A stretch of 64,000 nucleotides of DNA from the NCBI GenBank assembly GCA_002438785.1, contig DJQS01000007.1:6194-70193 (forward strand), written 5' to 3'. The position numbers were made by a program, and so were the translations under genes. Below are positions 7,433 to 26,306 of this stretch, in pieces; positions within the stretch are counted from its first letter, which is position 1, and every line of letters begins with the position of its first letter. Source of the stretch: Bacillales bacterium UBA6380. Its GTDB lineage: Bacteria > Bacillota_I > Bacilli_A > RFN20 > CAG-826. The notes under the pieces were generated by a model. It ran no database searches, was not told the origin of the DNA, and saw only the letters and a list, made by a program, of their open reading frames with translations.

Positions 7433-8284
7433 ATGGCAACAATACAACTTAGAAGAAAAACTACATCAGGAAACGGTCCACATATCGGTAGTACAGGATC
7501 AGTAAAACAAGGTGAGCCATTAATCGATTTAAATGGTGGTAATCTTTATATCGCTAAAAAAGATAAAACGGCATCAAGTTCAGCACCTTTAGCAGTGACT
7601 GATTATTTTGAATTCGTTAATAAAGATAAATTGATCGGCATGATTGAAGATGCTACAACAGCGTTAGAACTTGGCACAGCTTCAAGATTTAATGTAGGAG
7701 ATGCAGAAGGGTGTATTCCTTATGTTCATAGTGATGGTTACCTTTCTCCTGATATTATTCCAAGCATCGCTATCACTAATACCTTTGTGGCTAACTCTGA
7801 TAGTGAAATGATCGCTTTATCAAATGCTGAGGTCGGTGATATTTGTATTCGTAACGACCTATCAAAGACCTTTATTTTAAAATCTAATCCTTATAACACT
7901 CTTTCAAACTGGACTGAACTTAAAACCCCAGCTGATAAGGTTAGCTCAGTAAATGGTAAGACTGGAGCAGTGAATATTTCTCTTAGTGAGTTAGGAGGCG
8001 TTTCAACATCAACGTTTAATACCCACGTAAATAGCAATAAACACTTAACCGATGCTCAAGTTCAACTCTTAAGTCACATCTATTCCTCTGAAATTGATAC
8101 TAGTGCTGGAAGTGTATTTATTAGCCAACAAGAGTTTAGAGATAATGCTATCACAAATGCCATCATGGTTAACTTTGACGTTCATGAATTTTATGAATCC
8201 TTCTTTGTTAAAAAGTTTTATTTAGCTATTGATGGCACTAAGGTGTATCATCCTGGCTCAACGATTGATGGAGGTACTTATTAA
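7433..8284 (+). CDS. phage tail fibre / receptor-binding protein
   Basis: 283 aa; N-terminal MATIQLRRKT...QGEPLIDLNGGNLYIAKKD motif resembles the conserved N-terminal module of Firmicute phage tail fibre/HylP-like proteins (recollection). Confidence 0.45.
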   Translation: MATIQLRRKTTSGNGPHIGSTGSVKQGEPLIDLNGGNLYIAKKDKTASSSAPLAVTDYFEFVNKDKLIGMIEDATTALELGTASRFNVGDAEGCIPYVHSDGYLSPDIIPSIAITNTFVANSDSEMIALSNAEVGDICIRNDLSKTFILKSNPYNTLSNWTELKTPADKVSSVNGKTGAVNISLSELGGVSTSTFNTHVNSNKHLTDAQVQLLSHIYSSEIDTSAGSVFISQQEFRDNAITNAIMVNFDVHEFYESFFVKKFYLAIDGTKVYHPGSTIDGGTY

Positions 8285-8463
8285 TGGCAACTATCATGAT
8301 CAAAAGAGGTCTTAGAGTACCAACAACTACCGCCTTAACGAAAATGGGAGAGATGGCAGTTAATTATCAAACAGGATACGTTTATATTAGATGCATTAAG
8401 GGAATAATGTGTATAAATACGAATACACTATCGACTACGACAACAAGTAGTGCAACATCATAG
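8284..8463 (+). CDS. small ORF (59 aa) repeating the tail-fibre N-terminal motif
   Basis: Not in ORF track; TAATG overlap with upstream stop; translation MATIMIKRGLRVPTTTALTKMGEMAVNYQTGYVYIRC... parallels MATIQLRR...GEP...GNLYI of the preceding gene. Confidence 0.3.
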   Translation: MATIMIKRGLRVPTTTALTKMGEMAVNYQTGYVYIRCIKGIMCINTNTLSTTTTSSATS

Positions 8464-8475
8464 GAGGATAGAATA

Positions 8476-8760
8476 ATGGCGATTATTAAAAAATTAGAGT
8501 CTAGTTTTGGCGTGGATTTAAATTACCATAGGATTACAAATATTTCACTTAATGCTTTGGATAAAGAAGTGATTATCTGCGTCGGTTCATATTTAGATAA
8601 AGAAAAAAGAGATAAGGGGTGTGATCCAATTGATAGCATAGACATTCTGGTGCCTAAAGAGGACTATCAAAACTTTTTTACAGGTAATGTTTTAGAAGTT
8701 GGCTATAAGTGGTTAAGAGAAAATGTAGTCGGATTTGAGGAGGCTATAGATGATAAATGA
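8476..8760 (+). CDS. hypothetical phage protein (94 aa)
   Basis: AGGAGG RBS; overlaps next gene start by 11 nt (coupled). Confidence 0.4.
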   Translation: MAIIKKLESSFGVDLNYHRITNISLNALDKEVIICVGSYLDKEKRDKGCDPIDSIDILVPKEDYQNFFTGNVLEVGYKWLRENVVGFEEAIDDK

Positions 8761-9439
8761 GTTAACTTTAAAAAGAGATGCCTTGCTTAAAAACATCGAT
8801 AAAAACAAAATCGCTAGAGACATAAAAGGTATCCTTCCATCAGTTGAAGTGATGTTTATCTATTTTGGTGGAAGCGTTGCCTATAACAGCTTTGTTGGTG
8901 ATAAGAGCGACTTTGATTTAGTAGTCTTTGTAGATGGATTTCACAAGGTCTTTCAAACAAGTTATAACAATATGGATTTATTCATCTATCCAAAAAATGC
9001 TATTACTGAACGCTATAACAAAGATAACGATTATCCATTTTATAAGCAATGTTTTCTCGATGATGTTTTATCTCTTCCTGCCACATTAGTTTATTTAAAT
9101 CCGAACTACGAAAAAGAATATAACGAATTCAAAAATAAAGATTTTAATGGGGTTTTGCATGGCTTTTTAGATAATTTCTATAATTACCACATGTTTTGTT
9201 TTAACGGATTAACAGAAATGGCTAAGAAATTTTATCACGTTATAAGAATGAAAGGACAAATCGAAAACTATAAAAAGACAGGTAAGTTCACTCTTGATAT
9301 CGCCCCTGAATATTATAAAGAAATGATGGATTTAAAACTCCATTACGATGATAAAAATAGAAAAGATGAATTCTTAAAGAAAATAGAAGAATACTTAAAA
9401 GATATATATGAATTTAAGGAGGTGTTAACTTATGGATAG
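8750..9439 (+). CDS. Pol-beta superfamily nucleotidyltransferase (ANT/Lnu-like fold), phage moron
   Basis: 229 aa; hG[GS]x11DxD motif FGGSVAYNSFVGDKSDFDLVVFV (nt about 8867-8917) typical of minimal nucleotidyltransferases; helical C-terminal half. Confidence 0.5.
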   Translation: MINELTLKRDALLKNIDKNKIARDIKGILPSVEVMFIYFGGSVAYNSFVGDKSDFDLVVFVDGFHKVFQTSYNNMDLFIYPKNAITERYNKDNDYPFYKQCFLDDVLSLPATLVYLNPNYEKEYNEFKNKDFNGVLHGFLDNFYNYHMFCFNGLTEMAKKFYHVIRMKGQIENYKKTGKFTLDIAPEYYKEMMDLKLHYDDKNRKDEFLKKIEEYLKDIYEFKEVLTYG

Positions 9440-9749
9440 TTCATCAATCGCCTTAACCATCATCTCAGTGCTAGGGACAATCTCTAGCATTTTATTTGCT
9501 TTTTTAGCTTTTAGAAGAAATGACAAAAGAGACAATAAGGATGCTGGTAAAAATGAAGGTGTAATGCTTAGTGAAATCGGCTATATCAAGTCTTCAATTG
9601 ATAGGATAGAGAAGTCTTTAAACCATCTTGAAGAGCGATATACTGATCTTTCTAACCGTTTAATTAAAGTGGAAGAGTCCACTAAGAATGCACATAAACG
9701 AATTACGGAACTTCATGAAGAGATAAAAGGAGGAAAAAATCATGAATGA
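9432..9749 (+). CDS. membrane protein with N-terminal TM and coiled coil (XhlA-like lysis accessory?)
   Basis: 105 aa; one TM (res 7-28) followed by charged coiled coil; located just before holin. Confidence 0.35.
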   Translation: MDSSSIALTIISVLGTISSILFAFLAFRRNDKRDNKDAGKNEGVMLSEIGYIKSSIDRIEKSLNHLEERYTDLSNRLIKVEESTKNAHKRITELHEEIKGGKNHE

Positions 9750-10119
9750 AATTTTACTTAACGTTTTAAGCTGTGTAGTGACAGCAGTAATTATTCCTCT
9801 TATCACTTTACTTGGATCTAAACTTATCAAATGGATTTCTGGTAAAATCGATAATGAAAAGACTTCTAAATATTTAACGGAAGCAACAACTATTGTTTTA
9901 GATGCAGTAAAATGTGTCTTTCAAACTTATGTAGAAGCCTTAAAGAAAGAAGGAAGTTTTAATAAAGATGCTCAACTCATCGCTCTTAATAAAGCAAAAG
10001 AGATCGTTTTAAATCAACTTAGTAATGATGTAAAAGAGTATATAAAAAGTAACTTTGGTGATATCGATACCTGGCTTACTACTCAAATTGAAGCAAGTAT
10101 TAACACCTTAAAGAACTAG
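9742..10119 (+). CDS. phage holin (LL-H / holin superfamily 6-like)
   Basis: 125 aa, single N-terminal TM then amphipathic helical region; position at end of structural module. Confidence 0.5.
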   Translation: MNEILLNVLSCVVTAVIIPLITLLGSKLIKWISGKIDNEKTSKYLTEATTIVLDAVKCVFQTYVEALKKEGSFNKDAQLIALNKAKEIVLNQLSNDVKEYIKSNFGDIDTWLTTQIEASINTLKN

Positions 10120-10322
10120 GCTTTTACTTCATCAAAAAGAGCGTCACTAATACTTATTCCTAGAGCATCGCATATCTTAAAAGCGGTTTGAAGTCTGATA
10201 TTTTCATTGTTTAAGACTCGGTTAATGGTTGATAATGATAAGCCAGTAATCTCTGCTAACTCCTTTTTTGATATGCAGTGCTCGACTAGATATTTTCTTA
10301 ATCCATCAAAGGTATAGTTCAT
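10116..10322 (-). CDS. XRE-family HTH transcriptional regulator (Cro/cI-like)
   Basis: 68 aa; HTH LAEITGLSLSTINRVLNN; convergent 4-nt overlap with holin stop; divergent from the recombinase operon. Confidence 0.7.
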   Translation of the reverse strand: MNYTFDGLRKYLVEHCISKKELAEITGLSLSTINRVLNNENIRLQTAFKICDALGISISDALFDEVKA

Positions 10323-10612
10323 ATAAGAATAATAGCGTATTTTATGTAGGAGTTTTAGAAAATTCTGAGTTTAGGTGATAGGCTTAAAATATTTACTGTC
10401 AAGAAAAAGAGAATAGAAAAGAAAATAAACACGCTACAAATTTCTTTATATTACTTAGTAATATAGGCGTTTTATGAATTCATGAATTTGATAGAATTTT
10501 AAGATGATTATGAGATTTCTTTAAGATGAATTTAGATGATTTTGCCATTAAAGTAGGACTAACCAGGATTTAAAAATTCATAGGTTATAATGATTTTAAG
10601 GAGGCAATAAAA

Positions 10613-10828
10613 ATGTATAAAATTCCATCTATAACTCTTGAAACATTGCTCTTTAATCTTCAAGGGAATCAAGAAGTGCTAGTGAAAAATATTGATGTTG
10701 ATCTAACTGCTTATGGAAACGAAAGCTCAATAAGAAAAATATGCTATCAATGGCTAGAACACTTAGTGACATCAATATTTCTAAATGAGCAAAAGCAAAT
10801 TGAAATTCATATCAGTAATGAACTTTAA
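10613..10828 (+). CDS. hypothetical protein (71 aa)
   Basis: AGGAGG RBS at 10599-10604. Confidence 0.3.
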   Translation: MYKIPSITLETLLFNLQGNQEVLVKNIDVDLTAYGNESSIRKICYQWLEHLVTSIFLNEQKQIEIHISNEL

Positions 10829-10963
10829 CCTTATGACTCTGCCTTAATTGGTGGAGTCTTTTTTTGTTGTTGAAGTAAAGAAAACATAAAAAATAAAAAA
10901 TTCAAAATATATCAAAAAAAATCCTCATTTTGCACCAATGGTATTGAGGAGGTGTAACTTCAT

Positions 10964-11380
10964 ATGGACATTATTATGAAAAATAAAATTAAAGCCTTAA
11001 GGAGTGAAGGTTATGGTTATGGAAAAATAGCGGAACTTTTAAATATATCAAAAAGCCAGGTTAGTTCGTTTTGCCGAAGAAATAATATCGATTGTATGAA
11101 TTGCTCGAACTGCATCCATTGTGCTTATTGTGGCTTACCTGTTTCTTGTTTAAATCATCATAAGAAAAAGAGGTTCTGCTCCGATAGTTGCAAGAGTAAA
11201 TACTATAACGAACTTTATAAAAAAGAAGGCAAAATCCATGGTGAAAATCTAACGTGCAAGTGCTGTGGCAAGATATTTAACTCTAAATGGAATAAGAATC
11301 AAGTATTTTGTTCGCATCAATGTTATATTACATACCGTTATAAAGGAGGTAAGAAAGATGATGGAAATAGTGCTTTATAG
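10964..11380 (+). CDS. HTH plus Cys-rich zinc-ribbon protein
   Basis: 138 aa; N-terminal HTH (GYGYGKIAELLNISKSQVSSFCRR) then multiple CxxC pairs; directly upstream of recombinases. Confidence 0.45.
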   Translation: MDIIMKNKIKALRSEGYGYGKIAELLNISKSQVSSFCRRNNIDCMNCSNCIHCAYCGLPVSCLNHHKKKRFCSDSCKSKYYNELYKKEGKIHGENLTCKCCGKIFNSKWNKNQVFCSHQCYITYRYKGGKKDDGNSAL

Positions 11381-11543
11381 AGAGAATTTAGAGAATTATA
11401 AAATTGCCATGAATTTAATAAAAACAATGCAAAACTTAGGTATTTTATCAGAAAACGACCTAAATAAGATGGGTAGAGTTTTAAGAAAAAAATATAGTAT
11501 CAAACCTAGTTCTATTTATGTCGATGATGGGTTGAATTCCTAG
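11357..11543 (+). CDS. small hypothetical protein (about 62 aa)
   Basis: ATG 11357 preceded by AAAGGAGG (11341-11348); ORF-track start at 11265 overlaps the upstream gene. Confidence 0.25.
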
Positions 11544-11584
11544 CCGTTTAGAGTGATGTATATGACTAAGGAGGTATAAAGAAA

Positions 11585-12886
11585 ATGGAAGAAAAAAGCA
11601 TTGAAAAAAGACTCGGTATGCCGTCCTTAGTTCATAAGAAAAAAGTCGCTGCATATTGTCGAGTCTCAGTTGAAAAAGATGCCATGCTCCATTCCTTATC
11701 GAACCAGGTATCCTATTATCAAGATTACATTGCTAAAAACGATGAATGGATCTATGTAGGAACTTATGCAGATGAAGGAATAAGTGGCACTAAGGTTAAT
11801 AGACCTGAATTCAATCGCCTTATTGAAGATTGTAAGGCACATAAAATCGATATGATAATTACAAAGTCAATATCGAGATTTGCTCGAAACACCACGCTCT
11901 TACTTCAAACGACAAGGCTTTTAAAAAAATTAAATATCGATGTCTATTTTGAAGAGCAGAAGATTCATAGTCTATCTAACGATGGTGAGTTAATGCTTTC
12001 TTTACTGGCTGGATTTGCTGAAGAGGAAGCTAAGTCGATGTCAAATAATGTAAGATGGAAAGTAAATAAGTTTTTTGAAGACGGTAAGATTTGGGGACTT
12101 CACAAAATATATGGCTATGATGTTATTGATGGCAAGCTAGTGGTGAATCAAAAAGAAGCTGAAGTCATAAGACTCATTTATCATCTTTATTTAGATGAAG
12201 GACTAGGAACTCATCAAATAGTCAATAGACTTGACGAACTCAATATCCCTGCTCCAAAAGCTAATGGATGGATACGATATAGTGTGCGAAATATTTTAAG
12301 ATCCATCATTTATACTGGCGAGTTGATGCTTGGTAAATATTCTCAAGAAATGAACCCTATATCACACCATAAAGAAAACGATGGAAGATACCCTTTGTAT
12401 TATGTTGAAGAAAGTCATGAGCCAATTATCAGTAAGGAACTTTATGAAAGAGCCCAGGCAACATTTAAACAAAGGAATGAAAAGTATATACCTACCAAAG
12501 AGAATAATTACTCGCCTTTTGCTGGTTTAATTAAATGTGCTAGTTGCGGAAAGAATTATCTTAGAAAGAAAAATAAGTATCGCATCTATTGGATATGTGG
12601 TCAGTTTGTTGTTGGAAAAGGTAAAAAGTGTAATCAAGCCTTATCACTTAGAGAAGATACGCTTTATGAACTTACAAAACTCGCTCTAGATATAGATGAA
12701 GTAACTGAAAAGAGTCTAGAGCCATTAGAACAAATTATGGTTCATGATTCAAAAGACCTAGATTTTATATTCAAAAACGGAGAAAAGAAAACCTATCATT
12801 TTGAGTTTAAGTCAAGAAAAGAATCGTGGACGGAAGAAATGAAAGAAGAAGCAAGAAGAAGGGGGTTATTAAATTATTATGCCTAA
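11585..12886 (+). CDS. large serine recombinase (433 aa)
   Basis: Resolvase catalytic N-terminus AAYCRVSVEKD with Ser nucleophile; recombinase and zinc-ribbon domains (CASCGKNY...C); AAGGAGG RBS. Confidence 0.85.
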   Translation: MEEKSIEKRLGMPSLVHKKKVAAYCRVSVEKDAMLHSLSNQVSYYQDYIAKNDEWIYVGTYADEGISGTKVNRPEFNRLIEDCKAHKIDMIITKSISRFARNTTLLLQTTRLLKKLNIDVYFEEQKIHSLSNDGELMLSLLAGFAEEEAKSMSNNVRWKVNKFFEDGKIWGLHKIYGYDVIDGKLVVNQKEAEVIRLIYHLYLDEGLGTHQIVNRLDELNIPAPKANGWIRYSVRNILRSIIYTGELMLGKYSQEMNPISHHKENDGRYPLYYVEESHEPIISKELYERAQATFKQRNEKYIPTKENNYSPFAGLIKCASCGKNYLRKKNKYRIYWICGQFVVGKGKKCNQALSLREDTLYELTKLALDIDEVTEKSLEPLEQIMVHDSKDLDFIFKNGEKKTYHFEFKSRKESWTEEMKEEARRRGLLNYYA

Positions 12887-14480
12887 AGTAACTAAAATAG
12901 AAGCTACTATAAATCCAAAAACAAGACTGCCAAAGAATCAATTAACAAAAAGAAAAGTTGCAGCCTATGCTCGAGTATCAACCGATAGCGATGAACAAGC
13001 CACATCCTATTCAGCTCAAGTTGATTATTATAGTCGCTATATTAAATCTAGACCTGATTGGGAGTTTGTTGATGTTTATACCGATGAAGGAATCAGTGGA
13101 ACAAATACTAAAAATAGAAATGGCTTTAATAAAATGATCGCTGATGCCTTAGATGGTAAAATTGACCTGATCATCACAAAATCAGTCTCTAGATTTGCTC
13201 GTAATACAGTCGATAGTTTAGTTAATATTAGAAAACTAAAAGAACATAATGTTGAGTGCTACTTTGAAAAAGAAAATATCTATACTTTCGATTCTAAAGG
13301 AGAGTTATTAATTACTTTAATGTCGAGTCTAGCTCAAGAAGAATCTAGGTCGATAAGTGAAAATGTAACTTGGGGACAAAGAAAGAGATTTGCTGACGGT
13401 AAGTTCTCGATGCATTTTAATAACTTTCTTGGCTATAAAAAAGGTCCGAATGGTGAAATTGAAATTGATGAAGAAGAAGCCAAAACTATCAGAGTAATTT
13501 ATAGATTGTATCTTGATGGACATTCTATCGTTGAAATTGCTAAATATTTAGATGAAAACAATTATGGTAAGCCAAATAAAAATAAAGGAACAAAATGGTC
13601 GATTTCAACTGTAAAAGGTATCTTAACTAATGAAAAATATAAAGGAGATGCCTTGCTTCAAAAAAGTTTTACTATCGATTTTTTAGGACATAAGACAAAG
13701 AAAAATGAAGGCGAGATTCCTCAATATTATGTTAAAAATTCTCATCCAGCCATCATACCTAAAGAAGAGTGGGAAATGGTACAAGATGAGATGAAAAGAA
13801 GAAAAAAAATAGGTTCAAAATATCAATTTGTCAATTCATGCTTTAGTAGTAAGCTCATATGTGAAGATTGTGGAGCGTTTTATGGTAGAAAAGTGTGGCA
13901 CTCTACTGATAAAGGAAGAAAAGTAATCTGGCAATGCAATAATAAGTTTAATCTTAGCAAAGAAAAAAGATGCAAAACTCCTCATTTGAGTGAAGAAGAA
14001 ATTAAATCAATGTTTATGAAGGCATACTTTCAACTAATGGATAAGAAGGGAAAGTATATAGATGATTTAAATGAAGTTAAAAATGCTCTTTGTGATATCG
14101 ATGAACTTGAAGACAAAATTAGAGAAAAAGATAAAGAAATAAAAACGGTTATTAGTGATGTTGAAAGTTTAGTGAAAAGTAATGCTAGTAAACCTCAAGA
14201 TCAGCTTAGTTATTATAAAAAGTATGCAGAACTAGAAGAAAAGTATAATTTATTAAAAGCTGATTACGATAAACTAGTAAGCCAAAAAGAAGAAAAAAAT
14301 GCAAAAGCAATAAGAATAGAAAAGTTTATTCAAGACATAAAAAATCATAAAGAAGAGATGGTAGAGTTTAATGAACCGCTCTGGAACTTGCTAGTTGAAA
14401 ATGCTATCGTTCATAAAGACAAATCCATAACGTTTAGGTTTCGAAGCGGTGTTGAAATTAAGGTTGAAGCTGAGGAGTGA
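12879..14480 (+). CDS. large serine recombinase (533 aa) with C-terminal coiled coil
   Basis: AAYARVSTDSDEQ catalytic motif; ICEDCGAFY...C zinc ribbon; long coiled-coil tail; 8-nt overlap with upstream recombinase. Confidence 0.85.
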   Translation: MPKVTKIEATINPKTRLPKNQLTKRKVAAYARVSTDSDEQATSYSAQVDYYSRYIKSRPDWEFVDVYTDEGISGTNTKNRNGFNKMIADALDGKIDLIITKSVSRFARNTVDSLVNIRKLKEHNVECYFEKENIYTFDSKGELLITLMSSLAQEESRSISENVTWGQRKRFADGKFSMHFNNFLGYKKGPNGEIEIDEEEAKTIRVIYRLYLDGHSIVEIAKYLDENNYGKPNKNKGTKWSISTVKGILTNEKYKGDALLQKSFTIDFLGHKTKKNEGEIPQYYVKNSHPAIIPKEEWEMVQDEMKRRKKIGSKYQFVNSCFSSKLICEDCGAFYGRKVWHSTDKGRKVIWQCNNKFNLSKEKRCKTPHLSEEEIKSMFMKAYFQLMDKKGKYIDDLNEVKNALCDIDELEDKIREKDKEIKTVISDVESLVKSNASKPQDQLSYYKKYAELEEKYNLLKADYDKLVSQKEEKNAKAIRIEKFIQDIKNHKEEMVEFNEPLWNLLVENAIVHKDKSITFRFRSGVEIKVEAEE

Positions 14481-15607: not shown

Positions 15608-16278
15608 ATGAATATTTTAGCATTAAATGATACAAAATCATCAAGTACTTTTGAGACTCGTAAAAACGTGATAAACGCAATCTTGAATTTACATTGGTCT
15701 TATAATAAGGCTTGTGGCTATTATCATGCATCAAGAATTTCTATCTACCGTTTCGTTAAAAAAATAAAAATAATCCATGTGATGAAAGCATCGCATTATT
15801 TTCTCATAAGCCAAAAAGTCCACATCCTAATGCATATAATGATGAATTAATACAGAAAATTTTAAACAAGCATAGGAGGTGTCATGGTAAATCAAAATTT
15901 GAAATATGGTGTGATTTTCAATCTTCTATTGGAGATTTTAAACCTTCATATATGACAATTTTGCGTACTTTTAGAAGAAATAGCGAAGATTTTCAATACA
16001 AAACAAATAAAAAGAAAAAACATGATAGACCATACGATACTCCGAAATTGCCTGGCGAAAAATGGCAAGTCGATGTTAAATATGTGCCCAAAGAGTGTAA
16101 AACCCAAGATCTAGAGGGAAGATTTTATCAATATACAATTCTTGATGAATTCAGTAGAAAACGTTTTCTTTATTTTACCAATGAACATTCAATGTATGAA
16201 ACTGTGAAATCGCTTGAAAGAGCATTGAATTTTTTAGACTATATCTCTGCTGGAATACGAACTGATAATTGGTTTTGA
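15608..16278 (+). pseudogene. disrupted IS30/IS481-like (rve/DDE) transposase: HTH fragment plus integrase-core fragment
   Basis: 15608-15850 is an HTH N-terminal piece; 15952-16278 carries GEKWQVDVKYV ... IRTDNWF (RTDNGxEF-type rve hallmark) truncated right after; frame breaks in between. Confidence 0.5.
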
Positions 16279-17351: not shown

Positions 17352-18581
17352 ATGACCAAACTTATAAATCGTGCTGAATACTTAAAACAACTGATTGAGA
17401 ATAAGGATGTTGATTTAGTAAAAATAATAACTGGTATTCGCAGATGTGGGAAGTCTTCTTTACTAGATTTGCTTCATGAATACCTTTTGCAAAATGGTAC
17501 GCCAGGAGAAAATATTATTCATATGAATCTAGAATCATTACAATATCGGAATATTATTGATTATTTTAGTTTTTATGATTACGTAGCAAAACATATTGCA
17601 AAGAGTGGAAAAACGTATTTGATTTTTGATGAGCTACAGGTAATTGAGCATTGGGAAAAAGCTGTTGAATCATTTCGTTTGGATTTTAATGTGGATATCT
17701 ATATAACAGGCTCTAACGCTTACTTATTATCTTCGGAATTATCGACCTTGCTTTCGGGAAGATATGTGGAGATACGTATGTTGCCATTATCTTTCAAAGA
17801 ATTTTTGAATTTTTATAATTTTGAAGTATCTATCAGTATTGAAGAAAAATTTCAGAAATATCTTCAGTTTGGGGGAATGCCTATTTTAAGAGAATATCAA
17901 TTCAATGAGACGAGAATTAATCAGGCACTTGAAGGCATTTATTCAACTGTTGTTTTAAAAGATATTTTACTCCGCAATCCACAGGCTGATCAGTCAATTT
18001 TAGAAAAGCTTATATTGTTCCTTTGCTCGAATATTGGAAGTATAACTTCGCCAAATAGTATTGGAAATGCCTTATCTCATGAAGGAAATATAATCAAAGG
18101 AAAAGATAAGAATATTGCCAGAAAGACGGTCGATAAATATCTTGATATGCTTCATCAAGCATTCTTTTTCTACTCAGTAAGACGATATGATGTGAAAGGT
18201 AAACAATTTTTGAAAACTTTAGAAAAGAATTATATTATTGATTTAGGATTTCGAAATATGTTATTAGGGTATCGAGATGTGGATAGGGGACATATATTAG
18301 AAAATGTTGTATATTTGGAGCTTATTCGAAGAGGTTACAATGTATATATTGGTAAAATTGGAGAACTTGAGGCTGATTTTATTGCTGAAAAACCAAATGA
18401 AAAACTATATATTCAGGTTACGGAGAGTATGCAATTAATAGAAACACGAGATCGTGAATTAAAACCACTAAGAATCATTAGAGATAATTATGAAAAAATT
18501 ATTCTATCGATGGATAGAAGTTATGTAACTTCTTATGATGGAATTAAGTCATTAAATTTAATTGATTGGCTACTACAATAG
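17352..18581 (+). CDS. AAA+ ATPase (AAA_14 plus DUF4143-type)
   Basis: Walker A GIRRCGKSSLL, Walker B LIFDELQ; 409 aa architecture typical of the widespread DUF4143 ATPase family. Confidence 0.7.
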   Translation: MTKLINRAEYLKQLIENKDVDLVKIITGIRRCGKSSLLDLLHEYLLQNGTPGENIIHMNLESLQYRNIIDYFSFYDYVAKHIAKSGKTYLIFDELQVIEHWEKAVESFRLDFNVDIYITGSNAYLLSSELSTLLSGRYVEIRMLPLSFKEFLNFYNFEVSISIEEKFQKYLQFGGMPILREYQFNETRINQALEGIYSTVVLKDILLRNPQADQSILEKLILFLCSNIGSITSPNSIGNALSHEGNIIKGKDKNIARKTVDKYLDMLHQAFFFYSVRRYDVKGKQFLKTLEKNYIIDLGFRNMLLGYRDVDRGHILENVVYLELIRRGYNVYIGKIGELEADFIAEKPNEKLYIQVTESMQLIETRDRELKPLRIIRDNYEKIILSMDRSYVTSYDGIKSLNLIDWLLQ

Positions 18582-19156
18582 TTCTATTATCCACGCGGAT
18601 AAAATATAATTATTTCAAATTTAAATATTGTATTTGAGATAACATTTTTAAATATTCTTAAATCAATTATTAAGTTGATGAGTTATAGTTACCTTTTATT
18701 TTACAATGAATATAAAGTATAAAAACTCTCGGTAGAATCAGAATTTGTTATAGGTATCATATCACTGGTAGAAAAGTCGTTTTATATTAATTAGATAGAA
18801 TGTGGCATGTTGTTACTTAAATTTTTATATGATTAAAGATGTCAAAATTAGTCATAAATGTTCGATGTAAAGTGAATTTTTTTATCATCGAGATTAGAGA
18901 AATATAGAATCAGATGAATTTATTATCGAATTAAATAAATACCTAGAATGGTTCAAAAATAAGTGAAGATTGAATTATCTTTCTATAAATAATTTCACAT
19001 TATATTAGTGGCAGATGTTGTCAGAAAAATATCTGCATTTCCTTTCCAACAATTTCAGTATGATATTTATAGGAAAATGCATTTAGCTATATCAATAGTT
19101 GTTTAATGTACAAAAGTCGTTATCAGACTTATTTTATTAATTGTAATGACTTAATA

Positions 19157-19279
19157 ATGCAACTCAAAAAAGTTAAGCATGAAAATACTTTAGCAAGAAG
19201 ACTCAAACACTTCATCTCTTATAGTATTCTTATTATTGATGAAGTCGGATTTCTTCTTATTTGTGCAGAAAAATCTTAA
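19157..19279 (+). pseudogene. IstB-like (IS21 helper ATPase) fragment
   Basis: Short ORF MQLKKVKHENTLARRLKHFISYSILIIDEVGFLLICAEKS contains the IstB Walker-B-like LIIDE(L/V)G(Y/F) motif; ends in a stop with further fragments out of frame. Confidence 0.3.
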
Positions 19280-19412
19280 CCTATTATTTCAGCTAACACC
19301 AAGAGGCAATTTATCGACATTGGTGAGTGTTATTTTCCAATAATAGTTAAAAATATATTTATTTTTTAAAAAAGCAACTTAACCTATGTTGATTGAATTA
19401 AGTCGTTTTCAT

Positions 19413-21515
19413 TTATTTAAATTTTGAACTTTTAAACAATTGATTTCTATTAATTGAATGATTGGTTTCGTCAAGCCAATATTCTTTACCATTTCTTGAT
19501 CCGATTTGAATAAATCCTGCTGAAGTACTTAAGCCTGTATTACCTTCTATTTTTGAGTAGAAGGTATAGTTTTCTTTAAATATAGCTCCATCATTTGTTT
19601 CTTCTATAATCCCATCTTCTAAAAGCTGATCATAGAGTTCATCGAATGAGTGATTTTCATGAGGTAATCGATAGTTTTCAATATCTGATCCTTTTTGTAC
19701 TTCAACCGCTCCATTATCTAAATAAAATAGAGCTTTTGCTTCAAGGCCTGGATTAGAAAAAAACAAATGTATATGTATAATTTCAAGATCAGAAGAAGAT
19801 ACTGCATAATATGGAAACAATGATATGACTTTATTAGTTAAATTAGCGGTTCTATCATCAATTTCTTTTGTAGTCCAATCTGGTAATTTTAAAATATCTT
19901 CATTTAATTTAAGATGACTAGTAGAAGAAAATAGGTCTACTTTATATTCCCAGATATTATTTTGCGCTTTAGAATTGTCTTTTTTAGAAATAAGTGTAAG
20001 ATTTCCTAATCTATTTCTTTGCATTAAATATTCATCCTCTGTTAAATTTAATTTAGTAAGCCATTTTTTACCATCTTGCGGCATTAAATGTTCCACACTG
20101 AGCTCTTTTAGATCAACAGGCGCAGAATTGTTAATGTTCTCAATTTTTTCTAAAACGATTCGTAATTGAGAACGTAAGATGTACATGTTATCTGTCCATA
20201 AGTGTTCTCTTAATTCCTTATCGTCAGGAACATATGATGATTTTCCTTTATTTGCATTTATCAAATGCTTTCTTAAGGCTATATCAATATTTGAATAATC
20301 GGGCTTACAAGAAGAGAGTGTATCATTTAAAACAGTAGGGAATATTCTTGTAATAGAAGATGTATCTAATGAGCATAATGCTCTTCTTATTAAGTATGAA
20401 TTGACAATTTTTATGAGATTTGCAAAAACATCATCACTTATTAGTAAATTTTGATTCATTTTATAAAATTCAAGAATAAGAGGAGCTGGCATTTCTGAAT
20501 CAATTTTTCTATAATCAATTAATTCATTTTTTATTGGATTTTTGAATTTTGTAATATCTAAATAATAAAGGTCGTTGTATCCTTTAGCATAATCTTTTAT
20601 ATCTGAAAGAATATCTTTAGGTGATAATCCGCTTTTTTGCTCTTTTTCATAGTATTCTTTGAATGTTGAATAAACAGAGTTGATATTACAAAGTCGTTTA
20701 TATTTAATTGATAAATAGATTCTAAAGAAACCTTCTAGTTTTTTGGCATTGCTATTTAAATTTTTTTCTATTTCGTTCCAATAATTTTTGTAATATATTT
20801 CTTGATCATCACTTGGAATAGTCATTAGTATATAATTTCTAATTAAATCTGATGCAGTTAATTTAGCTCCTGTTGAGTTAATACTTTCGAATATTTTTTG
20901 AGCGTTATCGTCTGAAGAAAGTGGAACACACACTAAGTATAGATTGTCCATTGCCATAAGTATTTGATTAAAAGAAAAACCATTTTTATTTAAGTCATTT
21001 ATTCTATCTTTAGTATAAATATAATTTTTGTATATGTTTGAATCAGTATTTTTAATATTATTTAAATCTTTATTGATTATTTGCTGATAAACATCATCAT
21101 CATTAACCAGTGGCTTTAGTTTGAATTTTAGTTTATCTTGTACAAATTGATTATTTAGATATTGATTCTCTAATTGTGAAGCTAAAGTAATATTGCCAGG
21201 GTCTTTTGTTTCATTTAATAAATCTCTTATTGCATACAACATAAGAAAAGTAGTGGTTAATCTTTGCTGACCATCTATTACAGAAAATTCTCTTGAAAAA
21301 GAATCTAATGGTGTATCTAAATAAATCAGAATACCTAAAAAATGTTTATCATACTTATTTTTTAATACTGCACAAAGATCATCAATATACTGTCTCACTT
21401 CTTTATTTGCTGTCCATGTGTAATTTCTTTGATACACTGGAATTACAAATTGACTTCCTACACTATTCCTTAATAATTCTAATAGACCTGTTCGTCTTGG
21501 TGGTTGATTTGTCAT
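19413..21515 (-). CDS. DUF262/DUF1524 (GmrSD-like type IV restriction / anti-phage) protein with extra C-terminal domain
   Basis: 700 aa; DGQQR motif (VIDGQQRLTT) near the N-terminus; His-Me finger motif SVEHLMPQ in the second half; about 130 extra C-terminal residues. Confidence 0.75.
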   Translation of the reverse strand: MTNQPPRRTGLLELLRNSVGSQFVIPVYQRNYTWTANKEVRQYIDDLCAVLKNKYDKHFLGILIYLDTPLDSFSREFSVIDGQQRLTTTFLMLYAIRDLLNETKDPGNITLASQLENQYLNNQFVQDKLKFKLKPLVNDDDVYQQIINKDLNNIKNTDSNIYKNYIYTKDRINDLNKNGFSFNQILMAMDNLYLVCVPLSSDDNAQKIFESINSTGAKLTASDLIRNYILMTIPSDDQEIYYKNYWNEIEKNLNSNAKKLEGFFRIYLSIKYKRLCNINSVYSTFKEYYEKEQKSGLSPKDILSDIKDYAKGYNDLYYLDITKFKNPIKNELIDYRKIDSEMPAPLILEFYKMNQNLLISDDVFANLIKIVNSYLIRRALCSLDTSSITRIFPTVLNDTLSSCKPDYSNIDIALRKHLINANKGKSSYVPDDKELREHLWTDNMYILRSQLRIVLEKIENINNSAPVDLKELSVEHLMPQDGKKWLTKLNLTEDEYLMQRNRLGNLTLISKKDNSKAQNNIWEYKVDLFSSTSHLKLNEDILKLPDWTTKEIDDRTANLTNKVISLFPYYAVSSSDLEIIHIHLFFSNPGLEAKALFYLDNGAVEVQKGSDIENYRLPHENHSFDELYDQLLEDGIIEETNDGAIFKENYTFYSKIEGNTGLSTSAGFIQIGSRNGKEYWLDETNHSINRNQLFKSSKFK

Positions 21516-22083
21516 TTTTACTGTTCCTTATTTATCATTTTGAAATGTAGTCCATAATATTTTAAAATCACAATTTAGGGTCTTGCAAATTTTACATAAA
21601 GCATCAATATTTATATTTTTAAATTTTATGGTTTTTGCCATAGTAGAAGTTCTTATTCCAGAAAGATTAGTTAATTCCTTCTTGTTTTAATTCTTATTAA
21701 TTGCAATATTCATAATCTGTTATAACTATTCATTTTAGTAAACAAACTCTCTCTTTAAATAAGATATACTTTAATTTTTTTATTTATCAATAAACATAAA
21801 GTTTAAGAATACATAAAAAAGCTTTGATTTTAAAATACATTGGTTAGTTTTTATTATTAATCTACATATCTTTCAATAATAGTTGTATTAAACAATTTGT
21901 AAATTAACAAATTGATTAAATTATCTATCTCCAAATATATTATTCTAAGTTAATAGCAGATGTAGTCAAAAAATCCGTATTCTCAATTGTTACAATTTAT
22001 TATGACTTCATCACTAACTCGCTAATTGGTAAAATAAATATTATTATTGATGAAAATATAAAATAATCTTTGACAATATTTAC

Positions 22084-22093
22084 GGGGGGGGGG
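22084..22093. repeat. G10 homopolymer tract in promoter region
   Basis: tacGGGGGGGGGGttaat; 30 bp upstream of the AAAGGAGGAAG RBS of the 22124 gene; extreme outlier in 27% GC DNA. Confidence 0.9.
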
Positions 22094-22123
22094 TTAATAT
22101 TATAAAAAAAGGAGGAAGAAAAA

Positions 22124-22609
22124 ATGTCAAAGAAAAAAGGGGTTGTTTCAAGTTTTGTTCTAACTATTTTATTCTTTTTAGGAGTTTTATCAGTTCTTTT
22201 CTTTAATCAATGTACAGCTGCAGGAATGTTAAATGAAGAAACTGTTACATTATTTGCGCTTATTGGTGCAGTAATTGACGAAGGAGAAGGTGGATTATTA
22301 GTATTAGCTTTTGTAGTTTTATTAATTACTTTTTTAGTTAGGTTCATTTTATTTTTGATTTTAGCTTTAGCTAAATGCAATATAATTAAAAAAGAATCTT
22401 TCGATGAAAAACTAGTTAAAATTTTAAATATTGTAGACACAATTTGCTTTGTCATTGACGATGTTGCTATATTATATATATTCTTCTATTATGTGATAGG
22501 TGGAAATCCGATATTTTCTGTTTATGGCTTGCCAATAGATGCATTTTATTTTGGTATAAGTATGGCTGCTTATTTAATTACAAGGAAAATGGCTAAACAA
22601 ATAGCATAA
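22124..22609 (+). CDS. small polytopic membrane protein (161 aa), function unknown
   Basis: Four or five hydrophobic segments; strong RBS. Confidence 0.45.
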   Translation: MSKKKGVVSSFVLTILFFLGVLSVLFFNQCTAAGMLNEETVTLFALIGAVIDEGEGGLLVLAFVVLLITFLVRFILFLILALAKCNIIKKESFDEKLVKILNIVDTICFVIDDVAILYIFFYYVIGGNPIFSVYGLPIDAFYFGISMAAYLITRKMAKQIA

Positions 22610-22628
22610 TTAAGTTTAATTATTTTAT

Positions 22629-22670
22629 AAAAAGAACTATCAAATATTTTTTAAATTTGATAGTTCTTTT
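22629..22670. terminator. bidirectional rho-independent terminator
   Basis: AAAAAGAACTATCAAA / TTTGATAGTTCTTTT perfect 15-bp stem flanked by A- and T-runs, between convergent genes. Confidence 0.55.
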
Positions 22671-22708
22671 ATTAAGTAGTTAAGATTATCTAAATTTATT
22701 TTAAGATA

Positions 22709-25700
22709 TTACTTATTTACTTTATATTTTTTAATAAAGATTAAAATAATAATTCCTAATATAGAAAGAATCGATATAAGAATACTCATACTAATAATAT
22801 TACCACCACAACCATTTTTATTAGATTCGCTATTAGTATTTTCTTTTTTATAATTTGTCAATTTAAACTTATATTCAACTGATCCATCAACCATATTTAT
22901 TTTAATAATATGTTCATTTGTTTCTAATGTGTTTAAATATTCATTTGTAAAAGTAATTGTTGATTTAGAATAATCTAAAACATATGAATTTTTATCTAAT
23001 TCTTTTTCATCAATGAGAATATTAATTAAATCTTTTAAATCGCCATTAATTGTTAAAACTAAATCATTTTTAGAATTTAAATCGATTTCTGCAGTGTTTC
23101 CCTTAATTTCATATACTTTTTTATAATTACAAGCTATACTTCCGATTGATAAAGAACCACTTGTAACCCCATCTTTAAATCTATAAACTGGACGATTACC
23201 ATTACTAGTATAACTAGCATCACTAATAGCAAACCCTTCATAATTATCTTCTATATTTAATTTAGTTGGAGGAAGAATGTGAGTAATTGTATTTCCTTCT
23301 TTATTAAATTTAATAGTTGCACCGACATTCTTATAACCATTGTCACTCATAACATATAATTCTTTATTATATGTATCAAAATCCATAGCCATAGCTCCAC
23401 CTAATTTAGAATCATATTCATTAATTAAAGTATATGTTCCATCATTATTTAAAACATAGGCATAAACAAATCCATTATCTTCTAAAGCAACAAAGAATAT
23501 TCCATCATTTATTGAATTTTTATAATTATCTATATTAAAGAGTTCGTTAGTATTTTTATCAATTATAGAACCTTCAATATCCTTGTAAGAAACATATTCA
23601 ACCGATTCAATACCCATATTAGCACTAACGCTAGGTAAAGAAGAAGTAATATCCCATTCCTTAGAAGCAACAATTTCATTGCTATCCTTATTTGGATCAA
23701 CCATTAAGATTGTATTATAGTTAACTCCTTTATTTGAATTATCTCTTTCTGAAGCTAAATAAACAAATCCATTGTCATCAACTGTAATTCCTTCAGCATC
23801 AGGACCTTTTGCAGTTAAATTATCCTTATCTTTAATAAATTTGACTTTTTTACCTTTAGAAAATCCTTCTTTAAAGTTCATTGAACCATCTTTATTGACA
23901 TCTAAAATCCAAAAGGTAGCTGTACCATTATCAACTGCATATAATTGATTATTATAAAAATCTAAGCCAGAAGAATCTTCTAAGAATAAACTTTCCTTAT
24001 CAAATATTTCGATTTCGTTACTTCCTGGCCAATTTATTTTTTCAGGAATATCTTTAAATTTATTAGCACTACCAGGAGTTTCAACCATTGTATTTTGATA
24101 GGTATTGCCATTAAAGTCTGGGTATAATCCCCAAGTCGGATTAGTATCTCCTATCCAAGTAGTTTCAGCTAATAATTGAGAATTATTATCATATAATCTA
24201 ACTGAATCATCTTTTCCTAAACCAAAACTTAAATCTGATATCACAAGATAACCATAAGGCTCAATTGTGGTGCCATCTTTAACTTTGTAAATATTATCAT
24301 CTTTATTATCTTTAATTATAAAATTAGAAATATCAATTTTTTCACTAGTAGGATTAGCAAGTTCTACCCAATCGTTTTCGTTTTCTTTAGGATTTGATTG
24401 TATTTCATTTAAAACAACAGGACTTGTAACTTTATTTAATTTTCCTTTACTAGATGTTGGATAGTCAACAAATTCACCTGTGCCATTAGGAATTCGAGCA
24501 TAAACCCCATTAGCATGAGCACCACTCCATGAATAAGAATCAATTAATAGCTCATCTTTATTATATAAATTAGCTTCATCAGATTTTCCAAGCCCAAAAC
24601 TAAAATCTTTATTTTGCTCAAAAACATAAATTTGATTAGGGTTTAACAAAGTATTATCAGCAACTGGCGTTACTTCGTTTTTCCTAGCTAATTTATCACT
24701 ATCATAAATATGCCAACCTGAAATATCAATCGGAGTAGTTCCAATATTTATAATTTCAACATAATCGATGCCACCATTAGGATCATCAGATTCAATTTCA
24801 TTTATTTTTACTTCTGGTTTATACCATTCATTAGCTTTATTTTTTGTTTCTTTAGTTAATGTAAATGAACCTGTTCCGTCAGGATAACGCCCATAACTAG
24901 CTTTAGCTCCATCCCCATCATAACTTGCGTGGCTAGTCCATGAATATTCATCGATTAATTCTTCTTTTTTATTATAAAGTCTTATAGAATCTCCTCCGCC
25001 TAGGCCGATATCATATTTACCTTCAATATATGTCTTAGTTGTATCATCATAAGCTTGACCAATTGTATTATTATCAATTACGTAAAAACTTTTTGAAGCA
25101 AGCTTTGTTCCTTCTTTAATTTTAAAACGATGATCATCACTATTATCTCTAATTTCATAATTTGATAAATCAATCTCACTATCACTATTATTATAAAGTT
25201 CGATCCAATCATCAGGTTGACTATTAACTTCATTAATTACTAATGGTTTACTTGTATCGGTAATTGGCTCTTCCTTAACGATATTTAATTCACCTTTAGT
25301 AGAATCTTGATCAATAAAATCACCTAAGCCATCTGGCACTCTGGAGTAAGTACCACTAGCTTGAGTAGTATATGTATAAGTATCGATTAATTCTTGATTT
25401 TTATTATAAAGATTAGCTGTATCAGCTTTCCCTAAGCCAAAAGAAAAATTAATTCCTCCTTCTAAAACTAATACTTCATTGCTTTTTAAAATCGTTCCTT
25501 CTTTAATTAAAGTTGTTTCATTATTTGTAAGATTTTCTAAACCTTTTTCATCACTAACAAAATAACCACCAATATCAATATCATTAGTTCCTACATTAAT
25601 AATTTCAATCCAATCTTCACCACCATTAGCATCCTTTGATTCGATTTCATTAATTCTTATACTTTCTTTTTTAAGTTCGTTTTGATTTCTTTTAACTATT

Positions 25701-25768: not shown

Positions 25769-25907
25769 AAATTTCTCCCTTTTAGAGAATTTTATTAATT
25801 TTTGGAGTGAGTATTCTATCAATAATCTGTAAATTAAATGTAAATAACTTATATAAATATATATTTTATGTAATTAAAATTAATATAAAATAATGTTAGA
25901 GGTTAAT

Positions 25908-26306
25908 ATGAAAAACATAAATGTTGTTGCTGCAATAATTATTAAAAATAATAAAATATTCATTACACAAAGAGGATATGGAGAATTTAAGGATTATTGG
26001 GAGTTTCCGGGTGGCAAAATTGAAAATGGAGAAACTAAAGAAGAAGCCCTTATTAGAGAAATAAAAGAAGAGCTTAATACTAATATTACCGTCAAGAAAT
26101 TATTAACTATAGTCGAGTATGATTATCCTAAGTTTCATTTAACTATGTCATGTTTTATATGTAATTTTGAAGATAATAATTTTAATTTAGTCGAAGCTGA
26201 AGACTATAGATTTATAGATGTTAATGAATTAGATTCGATTAATTTTTTACCAGCTGATATTTTAACTATTAAAAAAATAAAGCAATATTTTAATGAGAAT
26301 CAATAA
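25908..26306 (+). CDS. NUDIX hydrolase (MutT-like)
   Basis: Nudix box GGKIENGETKEEALIREIKEELN; start refined to MKNINVV. Confidence 0.7.
   Translation: MKNINVVAAIIIKNNKIFITQRGYGEFKDYWEFPGGKIENGETKEEALIREIKEELNTNITVKKLLTIVEYDYPKFHLTMSCFICNFEDNNFNLVEAEDYRFIDVNELDSINFLPADILTIKKIKQYFNENQ

What the first reader, a model, noticed from the sequence alone, without database searches (positions are those of the whole stretch)
8476..9439. Prophage moron between tail fibre and lysis genes: small ORF translationally coupled to a Pol-beta-fold nucleotidyltransferase
The tail-fibre to holin interval is a known hotspot for phage-carried defense, anti-defense and toxin cargo. Here a 94-aa ORF overlaps by 11 nt a 229-aa protein with a clean minimal nucleotidyltransferase motif. 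The motif is G41-S42-x11-D54-x-D56 (FGGSVAYNSFVGDKSDFDLVVFV) and is followed by a helical C-terminal half. Neither gene has a structural role. The nucleotidyltransferase could be an AbiEii/MNT-like toxin with the small ORF as antitoxin. It could instead be an ANT/Lnu-like antibiotic nucleotidyltransferase, or a nucleotide-signal-modifying anti-defense enzyme. The sequence alone does not settle this.
Basis: partly seen in the sequence, partly recalled or inferred. Interest (0 to 1): 0.55.

Follow-up and report, generated by a model that had tools for sequence, protein, structure and literature searches.

The report
Conserved phage late-operon nucleotidyltransferase, not cargo
The two overlapping genes are real and the larger one is an intact nucleotide-transferring enzyme, but it is a fixed, fast-evolving gene of one lineage of prophages of uncultured gut bacteria, not mobile cargo or a toxin-antitoxin pair, and its target is unknown.

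Summary
ORFs 8476-8760 (94 aa) and 8750-9439 (229 aa) overlap by 11 nt, and the G41-S42...D54-x-D56 motif is present.

The 229-aa protein is a two-domain Pol-beta nucleotidyltransferase (AF2 pLDDT 87) whose catalytic residues are invariant or nearly so. Its family has no Pfam, PHROG, NCBIfam or PADLOC membership. It has 89 representatives among 1.84 billion proteins. It is a remote relative of RlaP (PF10127; hhalign 95%), whose members add nucleotides to RNA 3' ends.

The "moron" and toxin-antitoxin readings are not supported:
- In about 50 related loci, down to 28% identity, the order tail fibre, s59, s94, NTase, XhlA-like, holin is unchanged.
- There is no promoter, terminator or GC anomaly around the gene.
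- Variable cargo lies after the holin instead.
- The 94-aa protein family also follows tail-fibre genes in phages that lack the NTase.

One new finding stands out. The NTase N-terminal domain is a recombination and diversity hotspot, 52% identical between phages whose flanking genes are 99-100% identical. Only the tail-fibre C-terminal tip varies as much.

No endolysin was recognised next to the holin.

My best guess, at low confidence, is a late-expressed RlaP-like RNA-end nucleotidyltransferase used in host-specific conflict. The substrate is untested.

The parts
8476..8760 (+). s94: 94-aa acidic small protein (pI 4.7), family phrog_5084; the last gene of the tail-fibre block
   Evidence: ORF. 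phrog_5084 E 2.5e-9. Homologs at 52-71% identity. Homologs directly follow tail-fibre genes in phages BCD7 and phiCDKH01. AF2 pLDDT 83 with no known fold. dN/dS 0.05.
8750..9439 (+). 229-aa two-domain Pol-beta nucleotidyltransferase (NTase core plus HEPN-like helical bundle), an uncurated family remotely related to RlaP
8737..8760 (+). GAGGAGG Shine-Dalgarno (8737-8743), NTase ATG (8750) and s94 stop (8758-8760): the 11-nt overlap
   Evidence: Sequence. Relatives keep an overlap of 8 nt, or about 26-29 nt in distant ones.
8867..8875 (+). Codons for G40-G41-S42 (the hG[GS] motif)
   Evidence: Invariant in A1. G41 is invariant and S42 is at least 90% conserved in the 48-sequence A2.
8909..8917 (+). 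Codons for D54-F55-D56 (metal-binding DxD)
   Evidence: Invariant in A1 and A2.
8975..8977 (+). Codon for D76, the candidate third catalytic carboxylate
   Evidence: Invariant in A1 and the majority residue in A2. Its assignment as third carboxylate is inferred from its position on the strand after the DxD strand.
9224..9247 (+). Codons for K159-K-F-Y162-H163-V-I-R166, the conserved C-domain motif shared with RlaP (K-x3-H-x2-R)
   Evidence: Nearly invariant in A2. It aligns with KRFYHILR / K..H..RLL of RlaP members.
8750..9154 (+). Hypervariable, recombining N-terminal domain of the NTase (residues 1 to about 135)
   Evidence: 52% identical between phages whose flanking genes are 99-100% identical. 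dS is 1.2-1.9 against 0.1-0.35 in the flanks. The L023 remnant breaks at the same point.
7433..8284 (+). TF283: tail-fibre-like protein whose C-terminal third is the only other segment as variable as the NTase N-domain
   Evidence: PHROG tail families E 5e-16 to 3e-12. Variability.
8284..8463 (+). s59: short ORF whose first 44 residues match the N-terminus of a 226-aa protein in the same slot of distant relatives
9432..9749 (+). XhlA-like membrane and coiled-coil protein, overlapping the NTase stop by 8 nt
   Evidence: Pfam XhlA E 6e-7 (29.9 bits, below the 34.7 cut-off) and phrog_1863 E 9e-22.
9742..10119 (+). Holin, the last gene of the coupled late operon; no endolysin follows
   Evidence: phrog_13712 holin E 1.4e-29. 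Downstream ORFs have no lytic domain.

Best explanation
The pair is part of the conserved late (tail-to-lysis) operon of a lineage of temperate siphoviruses. These integrate with twin serine recombinases into uncultured low-GC gut Bacilli, whose MAGs are labelled Mollicutes, Acholeplasmatales or Bacilli. The 94-aa protein is a tail-fibre-linked small protein, not an antitoxin. The 229-aa protein is a catalytically competent Pol-beta nucleotidyltransferase made late in infection together with the tail and lysis proteins.

Shown: the fold, the intact and conserved active site, vertical inheritance in a fixed slot, purifying selection, and allele replacement by recombination in the N-terminal domain.

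Inferred from remote homology to RlaP (PF10127): it binds NTP-Mg2+ with the GS/DxD/D76 site and the K159/H163/R166 helix of the C-domain. It then transfers an NMP to a hydroxyl acceptor, most likely an RNA 3'-OH. This would repair or re-tail RNAs damaged by host RNA-cleaving defences.

The hypervariability of its N-domain, matched only by the tail-fibre tip, is read as a host-strain-specific arms race. The substrate and the biological role are not demonstrated.
For: NTase identity:
- Pfam NTP_transf_2 scores 20.8 bits against a gathering threshold of 21 for the window protein, and 11 of 14 family members match.
- The AF2 model has pLDDT 87 and pTM 0.85.
- BFVD matches full-length phage 'nucleotidyltransferases' at TM 0.55-0.63.

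Active site:
- G40 G41 S42 S53 D54 D56 D76 K159 Y162 H163 R166 are invariant in 14 sequences.
- G41, D54 and D56 are invariant, and S42, S53, D104, K159, Y162, H163, R166 and K196 are at least 90% conserved, in 48 sequences at 18-58% identity.

RlaP link:
- The weakest hit of the family profile in 1.84e9 proteins, P0119, is a bona fide RlaP (PF10127 E 6e-21, full length).
- hhalign gives 93.8% for A1 vs P0119 and 95.2% (E 2.6e-8, 157 columns across both domains including K..YH..R) for A2 vs four RlaP members.
- RlaP enzymes add 1-2 NMPs to RNA 3'-OH ends, and phage T4 NrdC.11 is a member (PMC12776372). Phage RlaPs are thought to restore nucleotides lost to host RNases (PMC7824862).

Core gene:
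- Gene order is identical in about 50 loci.
- dN/dS is 0.15.

Arms-race signature.
Against: - The window protein does not reach the RlaP Pfam model at all, and relatives score 14.8-22.4 bits against a threshold of 23.
- The feature that defines RlaP, a neighbouring RNA ligase, is absent. None lies within the window's prophage part. None was found among the ORFs scanned with Pfam in the early and packaging regions (L064, L071) of a 55-kb relative.
- RlaP genes of deposited phages sit in early or nucleic-acid-metabolism regions, for example next to RNA ligase in Gordonia phage Daredevil, not between tail fibre and holin.
- The family is acidic (median pI 5.5), which is more typical of ANT-type enzymes than of RNA-binding proteins.
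- The best solved-structure matches are aminoglycoside NTases. The PfRlaP structure did not appear among the matches, so no direct comparison was possible.
- Co-variation with the fibre tip is not predicted by an RNA-repair role.
Confidence: 0.3

Rival explanations
1. Fibre-linked or virion-borne protein-modifying enzyme. The NTase nucleotidylylates (AMPylates) a protein, as MntA, DrrA and GlnE do. The target would be the tail-fibre tip, s94 or a host protein, or the enzyme is carried on the tail to act at the next infection. That would explain why its N-domain alleles travel with the fibre-tip alleles.
Against: The co-variation rests on essentially two allele classes, so on few independent events. 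No NTase-type fibre accessory protein is known to me. There is no sequence similarity to MntA, DrrA or GlnE beyond the GS...DxD motif. No interaction or virion data exist.
Confidence: 0.2
2. ANT-like small-molecule nucleotidyltransferase. The enzyme adenylylates a cationic small molecule, either an aminoglycoside or lincosamide antibiotic or a host or environmental metabolite that harms the phage.
Confidence: 0.1
3. Lysis-module component. The NTase occupies the slot that an endolysin holds in other phages and acts with XhlA-like and holin. One way would be to make a nucleotide or oligonucleotide signal that times or gates the membrane lesion, by analogy with the Hailong HalB/HalA logic.
Against: Positional analogy only. 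XhlA-like and holin are highly conserved while the NTase is hypervariable, the opposite of what a co-adapted partner would show. There is no sequence similarity to HalB. The hosts' wall status is unknown, since these orders mix peptidoglycan-positive and peptidoglycan-deficient species (PMC10868615). An endolysin could be unrecognisable or lie in the unscanned part.
Confidence: 0.07
4. Toxin-antitoxin or abortive-infection pair (AbiEii/AbiEi or MNT/HEPN-like), with the 94-aa ORF as antitoxin.
For: The genes overlap. The NTase fold is shared with AbiEii and MNT. Weak N-terminal motif hits to MntA occur in distant relatives and in PDB 5yep (E 0.0024, 46 residues).
Against: No PF08843 or PADLOC hit for either protein. 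s94 has no HTH, RHH or other known antitoxin fold. Its family follows tail-fibre genes without any NTase in BCD7 and phiCDKH01. There is no Rx4-6H HEPN motif in the C-domain (sequence). The pair is embedded in a late structural operon in which every gene overlaps its neighbour. It is never found as a stand-alone module.
Confidence: 0.03

Closest known systems
RlaP (PF10127, RNA ligase-associating Pol-beta nucleotidyltransferases; includes phage T4 NrdC.11, PfRlaP and PaRlaP)
   Same: Same two-domain plan of an N-terminal Pol-beta core plus a C-terminal helical domain. Both have three conserved acidic residues and the K-x3-H-x2-R helix motif. Profile-profile homology covers both domains (95%, E 2.6e-8). 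RlaP is common in phages (511 deposited records).
   Different: The window protein scores below the Pfam threshold. It has no RNA ligase neighbour. It lies in the late tail-lysis operon of temperate siphoviruses instead of early or RNA-repair clusters. It is shorter (212-232 aa against about 226-262 aa). The family is absent from all 50,697 deposited phage genomes.
Aminoglycoside/lincosamide nucleotidyltransferases ANT(3'')(9)/AadA, AAD(9), ANT(4') and LinB
   Different: Identity is 9-13%, with no sequence-family membership. The genomic context is a phage late operon, not a resistance cassette.
MntA/MNT of type VII HEPN-MNT toxin-antitoxin systems, and AbiEii
   Different: Here the helical domain is fused and lacks Rx4-6H. 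There is no partner toxin or antitoxin of the right kind and no PADLOC or NCBIfam hit for the window protein.
HalB of the Hailong defence system
   Different: No sequence similarity. The partner here is an XhlA-like/holin pair of a phage lysis cassette, not HalA. It is a phage gene, not a host defence gene.
phrog_5084 small proteins (for the 94-aa ORF), e.g. BCD7_0078 and phiCDKH01_64
   Same: 29% identity over the full length. Each starts with MA[IL] and sits immediately after a tail-fibre or large tail gene.
   Different: Those phages have no NTase after it. In BCD7 the next gene is a cell-wall hydrolase. In phiCDKH01 it is a 739-aa hypothetical protein.

Membership tests
Pol-beta nucleotidyltransferase superfamily (NTP_transf_2 PF01909 / Polbeta PF18765) | hG[GS] motif, DxD on the next strand, a third carboxylate, and an alpha-beta-alpha-beta-alpha-beta core | tested here: met
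RlaP (PF10127) | Scores above the Pfam gathering threshold (23 bits) | tested here: not met
   The window protein has no PF10127 hit at E up to 1. Distant relatives score 14.8-22.4 bits. Only P0119, at the edge of the family, passes with 75.7 bits.
RlaP (PF10127) | [quoted passage not shown] | tested here: met
   hhalign gives 93.8% (A1 vs P0119) and 95.2%, E 2.6e-8 over 157 columns (A2 vs A6), including the K..YH..R motif.
RlaP (PF10127) | Gene neighbourhood with an RNA ligase (RtcB, Rnl) or another RNA-repair gene | tested here: not met
   None in window 1-19 kb. None among the ORFs scanned with Pfam in the early and packaging regions (L064, L071) of a 55-kb relative. The leftmost 14 kb or so of that contig was not seen. 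The positive control Daredevil gp89 sits beside an RNA ligase.
RlaP (PF10127) | Adds 1-2 NMPs to RNA 3'-OH ends, not to DNA or protein | not testable with these tools
   This needs biochemistry. The activity is defined in PMC12776372.
AbiEii (DUF1814, PF08843) / AbiEi type IV toxin-antitoxin | An AbiEii-family NTase plus an AbiEi partner with a winged-HTH domain, as a stand-alone two-gene module | tested here: not met
   No PF08843 hit in any of 14 members. No PADLOC hit. s94 has no HTH and no known fold. The pair is always embedded in the tail-lysis operon.
HEPN-MNT type VII toxin-antitoxin | A minimal MNT of about 100-140 aa with a separate HEPN toxin carrying Rx4-6H | tested here: not met
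   The NCBIfam MntA model has no hit for the window protein. The helical domain is fused and has no Rx4-6H (sequence). There is no HEPN gene adjacent.
ANT/Lnu antibiotic nucleotidyltransferases | Sequence membership in an ANT or Lnu family (Pfam KNTase_C/DUF4111, NCBIfam models) | tested here: not met
   No such hit. PDB sequence searches find no ANT or Lnu. Only the fold is similar.
ANT/Lnu antibiotic nucleotidyltransferases | Confers resistance or modifies the drug | not testable with these tools
   This needs MIC tests and enzyme assays.
CD-NTase / SMODS signalling synthases | CD-NTase fold and sequence, with an adjacent effector | tested here: not met
Phage moron (accessory cargo) | Variable presence among related phages, its own promoter and terminator, and often deviant composition | tested here: not met
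   The gene is present in all related loci, except that L022 carries a disrupted copy and L023 only the C-terminal 95 residues. No convincing promoter or terminator flanks the pair: the scan found only weak 9-of-12 consensus matches, 10 in the region against 22.2 expected from shuffles. GC is 0.29-0.34, as in the neighbours.

The most novel reading that the evidence does not exclude
This phage lineage has no conventional endolysin, and the hypervariable nucleotidyltransferase in the endolysin slot is a new kind of lysis or host-range factor. It could make or attach a nucleotide signal that gates the XhlA-like/holin lesion, in a Hailong-like logic used by a phage. Alternatively it could nucleotidylylate the tail-fibre tip or the host receptor pathway, so that enzyme and receptor-binding tip must be exchanged together.
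Probability: 0.07. Interest if true: 0.85.

Novelty: new variant of a known kind. Interest (0 to 1): 0.42.

Why it matters
This defines an uncurated nucleotidyltransferase family that is a hallmark late gene of prophages in uncultured RF39/Acholeplasmatales-like gut Bacilli. Nothing is known experimentally about the phage biology of these hosts.

Three features make it a concrete target for biochemistry. The active site is invariant. The catalytic domain is hypervariable and recombining, and it varies together with the tail-fibre tip. The adjacent lysis cassette lacks a recognisable endolysin.

If the RlaP-like reading holds, RNA-end repair would be extended to temperate siphoviruses and to late expression. 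If the fibre-linked or lysis reading holds, it would be a new role for this fold.

The case also shows that a gene sitting in a known cargo hotspot is not thereby cargo.

Tried and rejected
- Toxin-antitoxin, AbiEii, MNT, CD-NTase and PADLOC systems: no hits.
- ANT/Lnu membership by sequence: none.
- Deposited phage genomes: no homolog of the NTase by tblastn.
- Solved-structure relatives by sequence: only the N-terminal motif.
- Broad alignments A2 and A3 were too divergent for the search for related loci. I used A1 and single proteins instead.
- The context of the NTase-radical-SAM fusion P0093 could not be retrieved from viral or metagenome contigs.
- The search for an RNA ligase or an endolysin in a 55-kb relative found neither among the ORFs scanned with Pfam. 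The leftmost 14 kb or so and the small ORFs were not scanned.
- In-situ positive selection as the cause of hypervariability was rejected. dN/dS is 0.13-0.18 with dS 5-10 times that of the flanks, which points to recombinational allele replacement.
- Host wall-lessness as an explanation for the missing endolysin was left open, because these orders are mixed.

Full report
**Observation.** The two ORFs are as described. ORF 8476-8760 (94 aa) and ORF 8750-9439 (229 aa) lie on the + strand. The first stops at TGA 8758-8760 and the second starts at ATG 8750, an 11-nt overlap preceded by GAGGAGG at 8737-8743. Counting the translation gives G40-G41-S42, eleven residues, then D54-F-D56. Upstream lie Dit (Dit_N, E 1.5e-26), two PHROG tail proteins and a 283-aa tail-fibre-like protein. 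Downstream lie an XhlA-like protein and a holin (phrog_13712, E 1.4e-29). Coupling is not peculiar to this pair. TF283/s59 overlap by 1 nt, and NTase/XhlA-like and XhlA-like/holin by 8 nt each. No convincing promoter or terminator interrupts the run, and GC is uniform at 0.29-0.36.

**What the 229-aa protein is.** Pfam NTP_transf_2 scores 20.8 bits, just under the threshold of 21. There are no PHROG, NCBIfam or PADLOC hits.
- A word-indexed search of 5.8 billion proteins found only 14 clusters. 11 of the 14 aligned family members match NTP_transf_2.
- An exhaustive profile search of 1.84 billion representatives found 89.
- The close family keeps G40 G41 S42 S53 D54 D56 D76 K159 Y162 H163 R166 G169 Q170 invariant.
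- In 48 sequences at 18-58% identity, G41, D54 and D56 are invariant. S42, S53, D104, K159, Y162, H163, R166 and K196 are at least 90% conserved.
- AlphaFold2 gives a confident model (pLDDT 87.4, pTM 0.85) with an alpha/beta N-domain and a five-helix C-domain.
- Foldseek against viral models matches full-length phage 'nucleotidyltransferases' at TM 0.55-0.63.

It is therefore an intact two-domain Pol-beta NTase.

**Nearest family.** The most distant significant hit of the family profile, P0119, is a full-length member of PF10127 RlaP (E 6e-21). Profile-profile comparison gives 93.8% (A1 vs P0119). It gives 95.2%, E 2.6e-8 over 157 columns, for A2 against four RlaP members (three of them from phages). 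The match spans both domains and aligns the K-x3-H-x2-R helix. RlaP enzymes add one or two NMPs to RNA 3'-OH ends, not to DNA or protein, and phage T4 NrdC.11 is a member (PMC12776372). In phages they are thought to restore nucleotides removed by host RNases before ligation (PMC7824862). RlaP-type genes occur in 511 deposited phage records, but the window's family occurs in none.

Membership is not met. The Pfam model is not reached, and the defining RNA-ligase neighbourhood is absent. None lies in the window's prophage part. None was found among the ORFs scanned in the early and packaging regions of a 55-kb relative, which carry a DUF2800 nuclease, PolA, a D5-like primase, an SNF2 helicase, methylases, a SAM synthetase, HNH and TerL. 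By contrast, Gordonia phage Daredevil's RlaP sits beside an RNA ligase.

**Cargo or core.** Contigs encoding relatives at 35-58% identity all show the same order: 283-aa fibre, about 60 aa, 93 aa, NTase, XhlA-like, holin.
- tblastn with the window's proteins on 43 loci from genomes, metagenomes and IMG/VR shows a collinear block: TMP, Dit, Tal, t273, TF283, s59, s94, NTase, XhlA-like, holin.
- A holin-seeded search returns the same viral contigs.
- Relatives at only 28-31% identity (L053, L054, L056, L062, L063) keep the same slot, and the whole block is homologous.
- The variable region is after the holin. It holds an HTH gene and orphans here, a type I R-M system in L002 and two GmrSD genes in L056.

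So this is a vertically inherited core gene of the lineage, not a moron. Record titles place the hosts among uncultured Mollicutes, Acholeplasmatales, Mycoplasmatota and Bacilli MAGs.

**Evolution.** Across 18 genomes the NTase is under purifying selection (NG86 dN/dS 0.15). It has the second-highest dN of the block, at 0.38. t273 has 0.44 and TF283 0.22, while the other genes have 0.06-0.19.

Some phages are almost identical in flanking genes: s94 99-100%, XhlA-like 100%, holin 95-98%, Tal 97%. Yet they carry NTases only 66-70% identical. The difference is confined to residues 1 to about 135. That segment is 52% identical, with nucleotide identity 60-66% dropping from 95-99% at the gene start. 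Residues 136-229 are 86-100% identical. dS there is 1.2-1.9 against 0.1-0.35 in the flanks, with dN/dS 0.13-0.18, so alleles are replaced by recombination. A prophage remnant (L023) retains exactly residues 135-229, and L022 has an internal deletion.

The only other segment as variable is the C-terminal third of TF283. In 69 close pairs the two co-vary (r 0.99, no discordance). This reflects about two allele classes and so few events. In wider comparisons these two segments are always among the three least conserved, usually the two lowest, t273 being the other.

**Mechanism.** Shown: an intact NTase, late-operon placement, a core gene, and recombining hypervariable N-domain alleles. Inferred: NTP-Mg2+ binding by GS/DxD/D76 and the K159/H163/R166 helix, and transfer of an NMP to a hydroxyl acceptor.

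By homology the acceptor is most likely an RNA 3'-OH (RlaP-like counter-defence; confidence about 0.3). Four points weigh against this: the missing ligase, the late position, the acidic pI (median 5.5) and the fibre-tip co-variation. My estimates for the rivals are:
- a fibre-linked or virion-borne protein nucleotidylyltransferase (0.2)
- an ANT-like small-molecule enzyme (0.1)
- a lysis-module role (0.07)
- a toxin-antitoxin pair (0.03)

The lysis idea rests on two observations. No recognisable endolysin accompanies the holin in any locus. In BCD7 a cell-wall hydrolase occupies the slot between the s94 homolog and the holin region. The hosts' orders mix peptidoglycan-positive and peptidoglycan-deficient species (PMC10868615), so the missing endolysin remains unexplained.

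**Verdict.** The NTase reading is supported. The moron, toxin-antitoxin and resistance readings are not. This is a new, uncurated variant within the Pol-beta/RlaP-like NTases with an unusual fixed late-operon context and an arms-race-like diversity pattern. Interest is moderate.

Noticed in passing
window 9432-11585; also L001, L002, L053, L054, L056, L063, L064, L071: No recognisable endolysin lies next to the XhlA-like/holin pair or elsewhere in the visible prophage, nor among the ORFs scanned in a 55-kb relative. In Bacillus phage BCD7 a cell-wall hydrolase sits in the slot the NTase occupies here.
   Followed up: partly
window 10116-11543; L002 11576-16621; L056 4344-8821: The truly variable cargo region is between the holin and the recombinases. 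Here it holds a minus-strand Cro/C1 HTH gene and a 71-aa orphan. L002 has a type I R-M system there, and L056 two GmrSD-like genes.
   Followed up: partly
window 10964-14480: The prophage end carries two tandem large serine recombinases (433 and 533 aa). An HTH/zinc-finger protein and a SHOCT-domain ORF precede them. The recombinases and the HTH protein are conserved in most relatives, and the SHOCT ORF is detected in about half.
   Followed up: partly
window 17352-29271: A defence island lies beside the prophage: PDC-S01 (AAA_14/DUF4143, PADLOC E 2e-151), a GmrSD endonuclease (19413-21515) and a PLD + ResIII + DUF3427 helicase (26290-29271). An integrase-core fragment lies at 15952-16278.
   Followed up: no
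window 8284-8463: The first 44 residues of s59 match the N-terminus of a 226-aa protein in the same slot of distant relatives (41% identity, E 1e-9) and weakly resemble the N-terminus of TF283. It looks like a truncated second fibre-like gene.
   Followed up: partly
protein P0093 (559 aa, from the representative search): One family member is fused to a C-terminal radical-SAM domain (CNLNCWYC motif). Its genomic context could not be retrieved.
   Followed up: partly
L022 650-1274; L023 10001-10285: Two loci carry damaged copies. L022 has an internal deletion and frameshift that removes the KKFYHVIR motif. L023 keeps only residues 135-229 next to an intact XhlA-like/holin pair.
   Followed up: yes
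L064 6-1750; L071 8712-9953: Relatives of this phage encode a SAM synthetase (MetK) and two DNA methylases, one fused to ParB_N, just upstream of the terminase.
   Followed up: no
window 22709-25822: A 1037-aa minus-strand protein has four Lamin Tail Domains and a phytase-like esterase region, between the defence genes.
   Followed up: no
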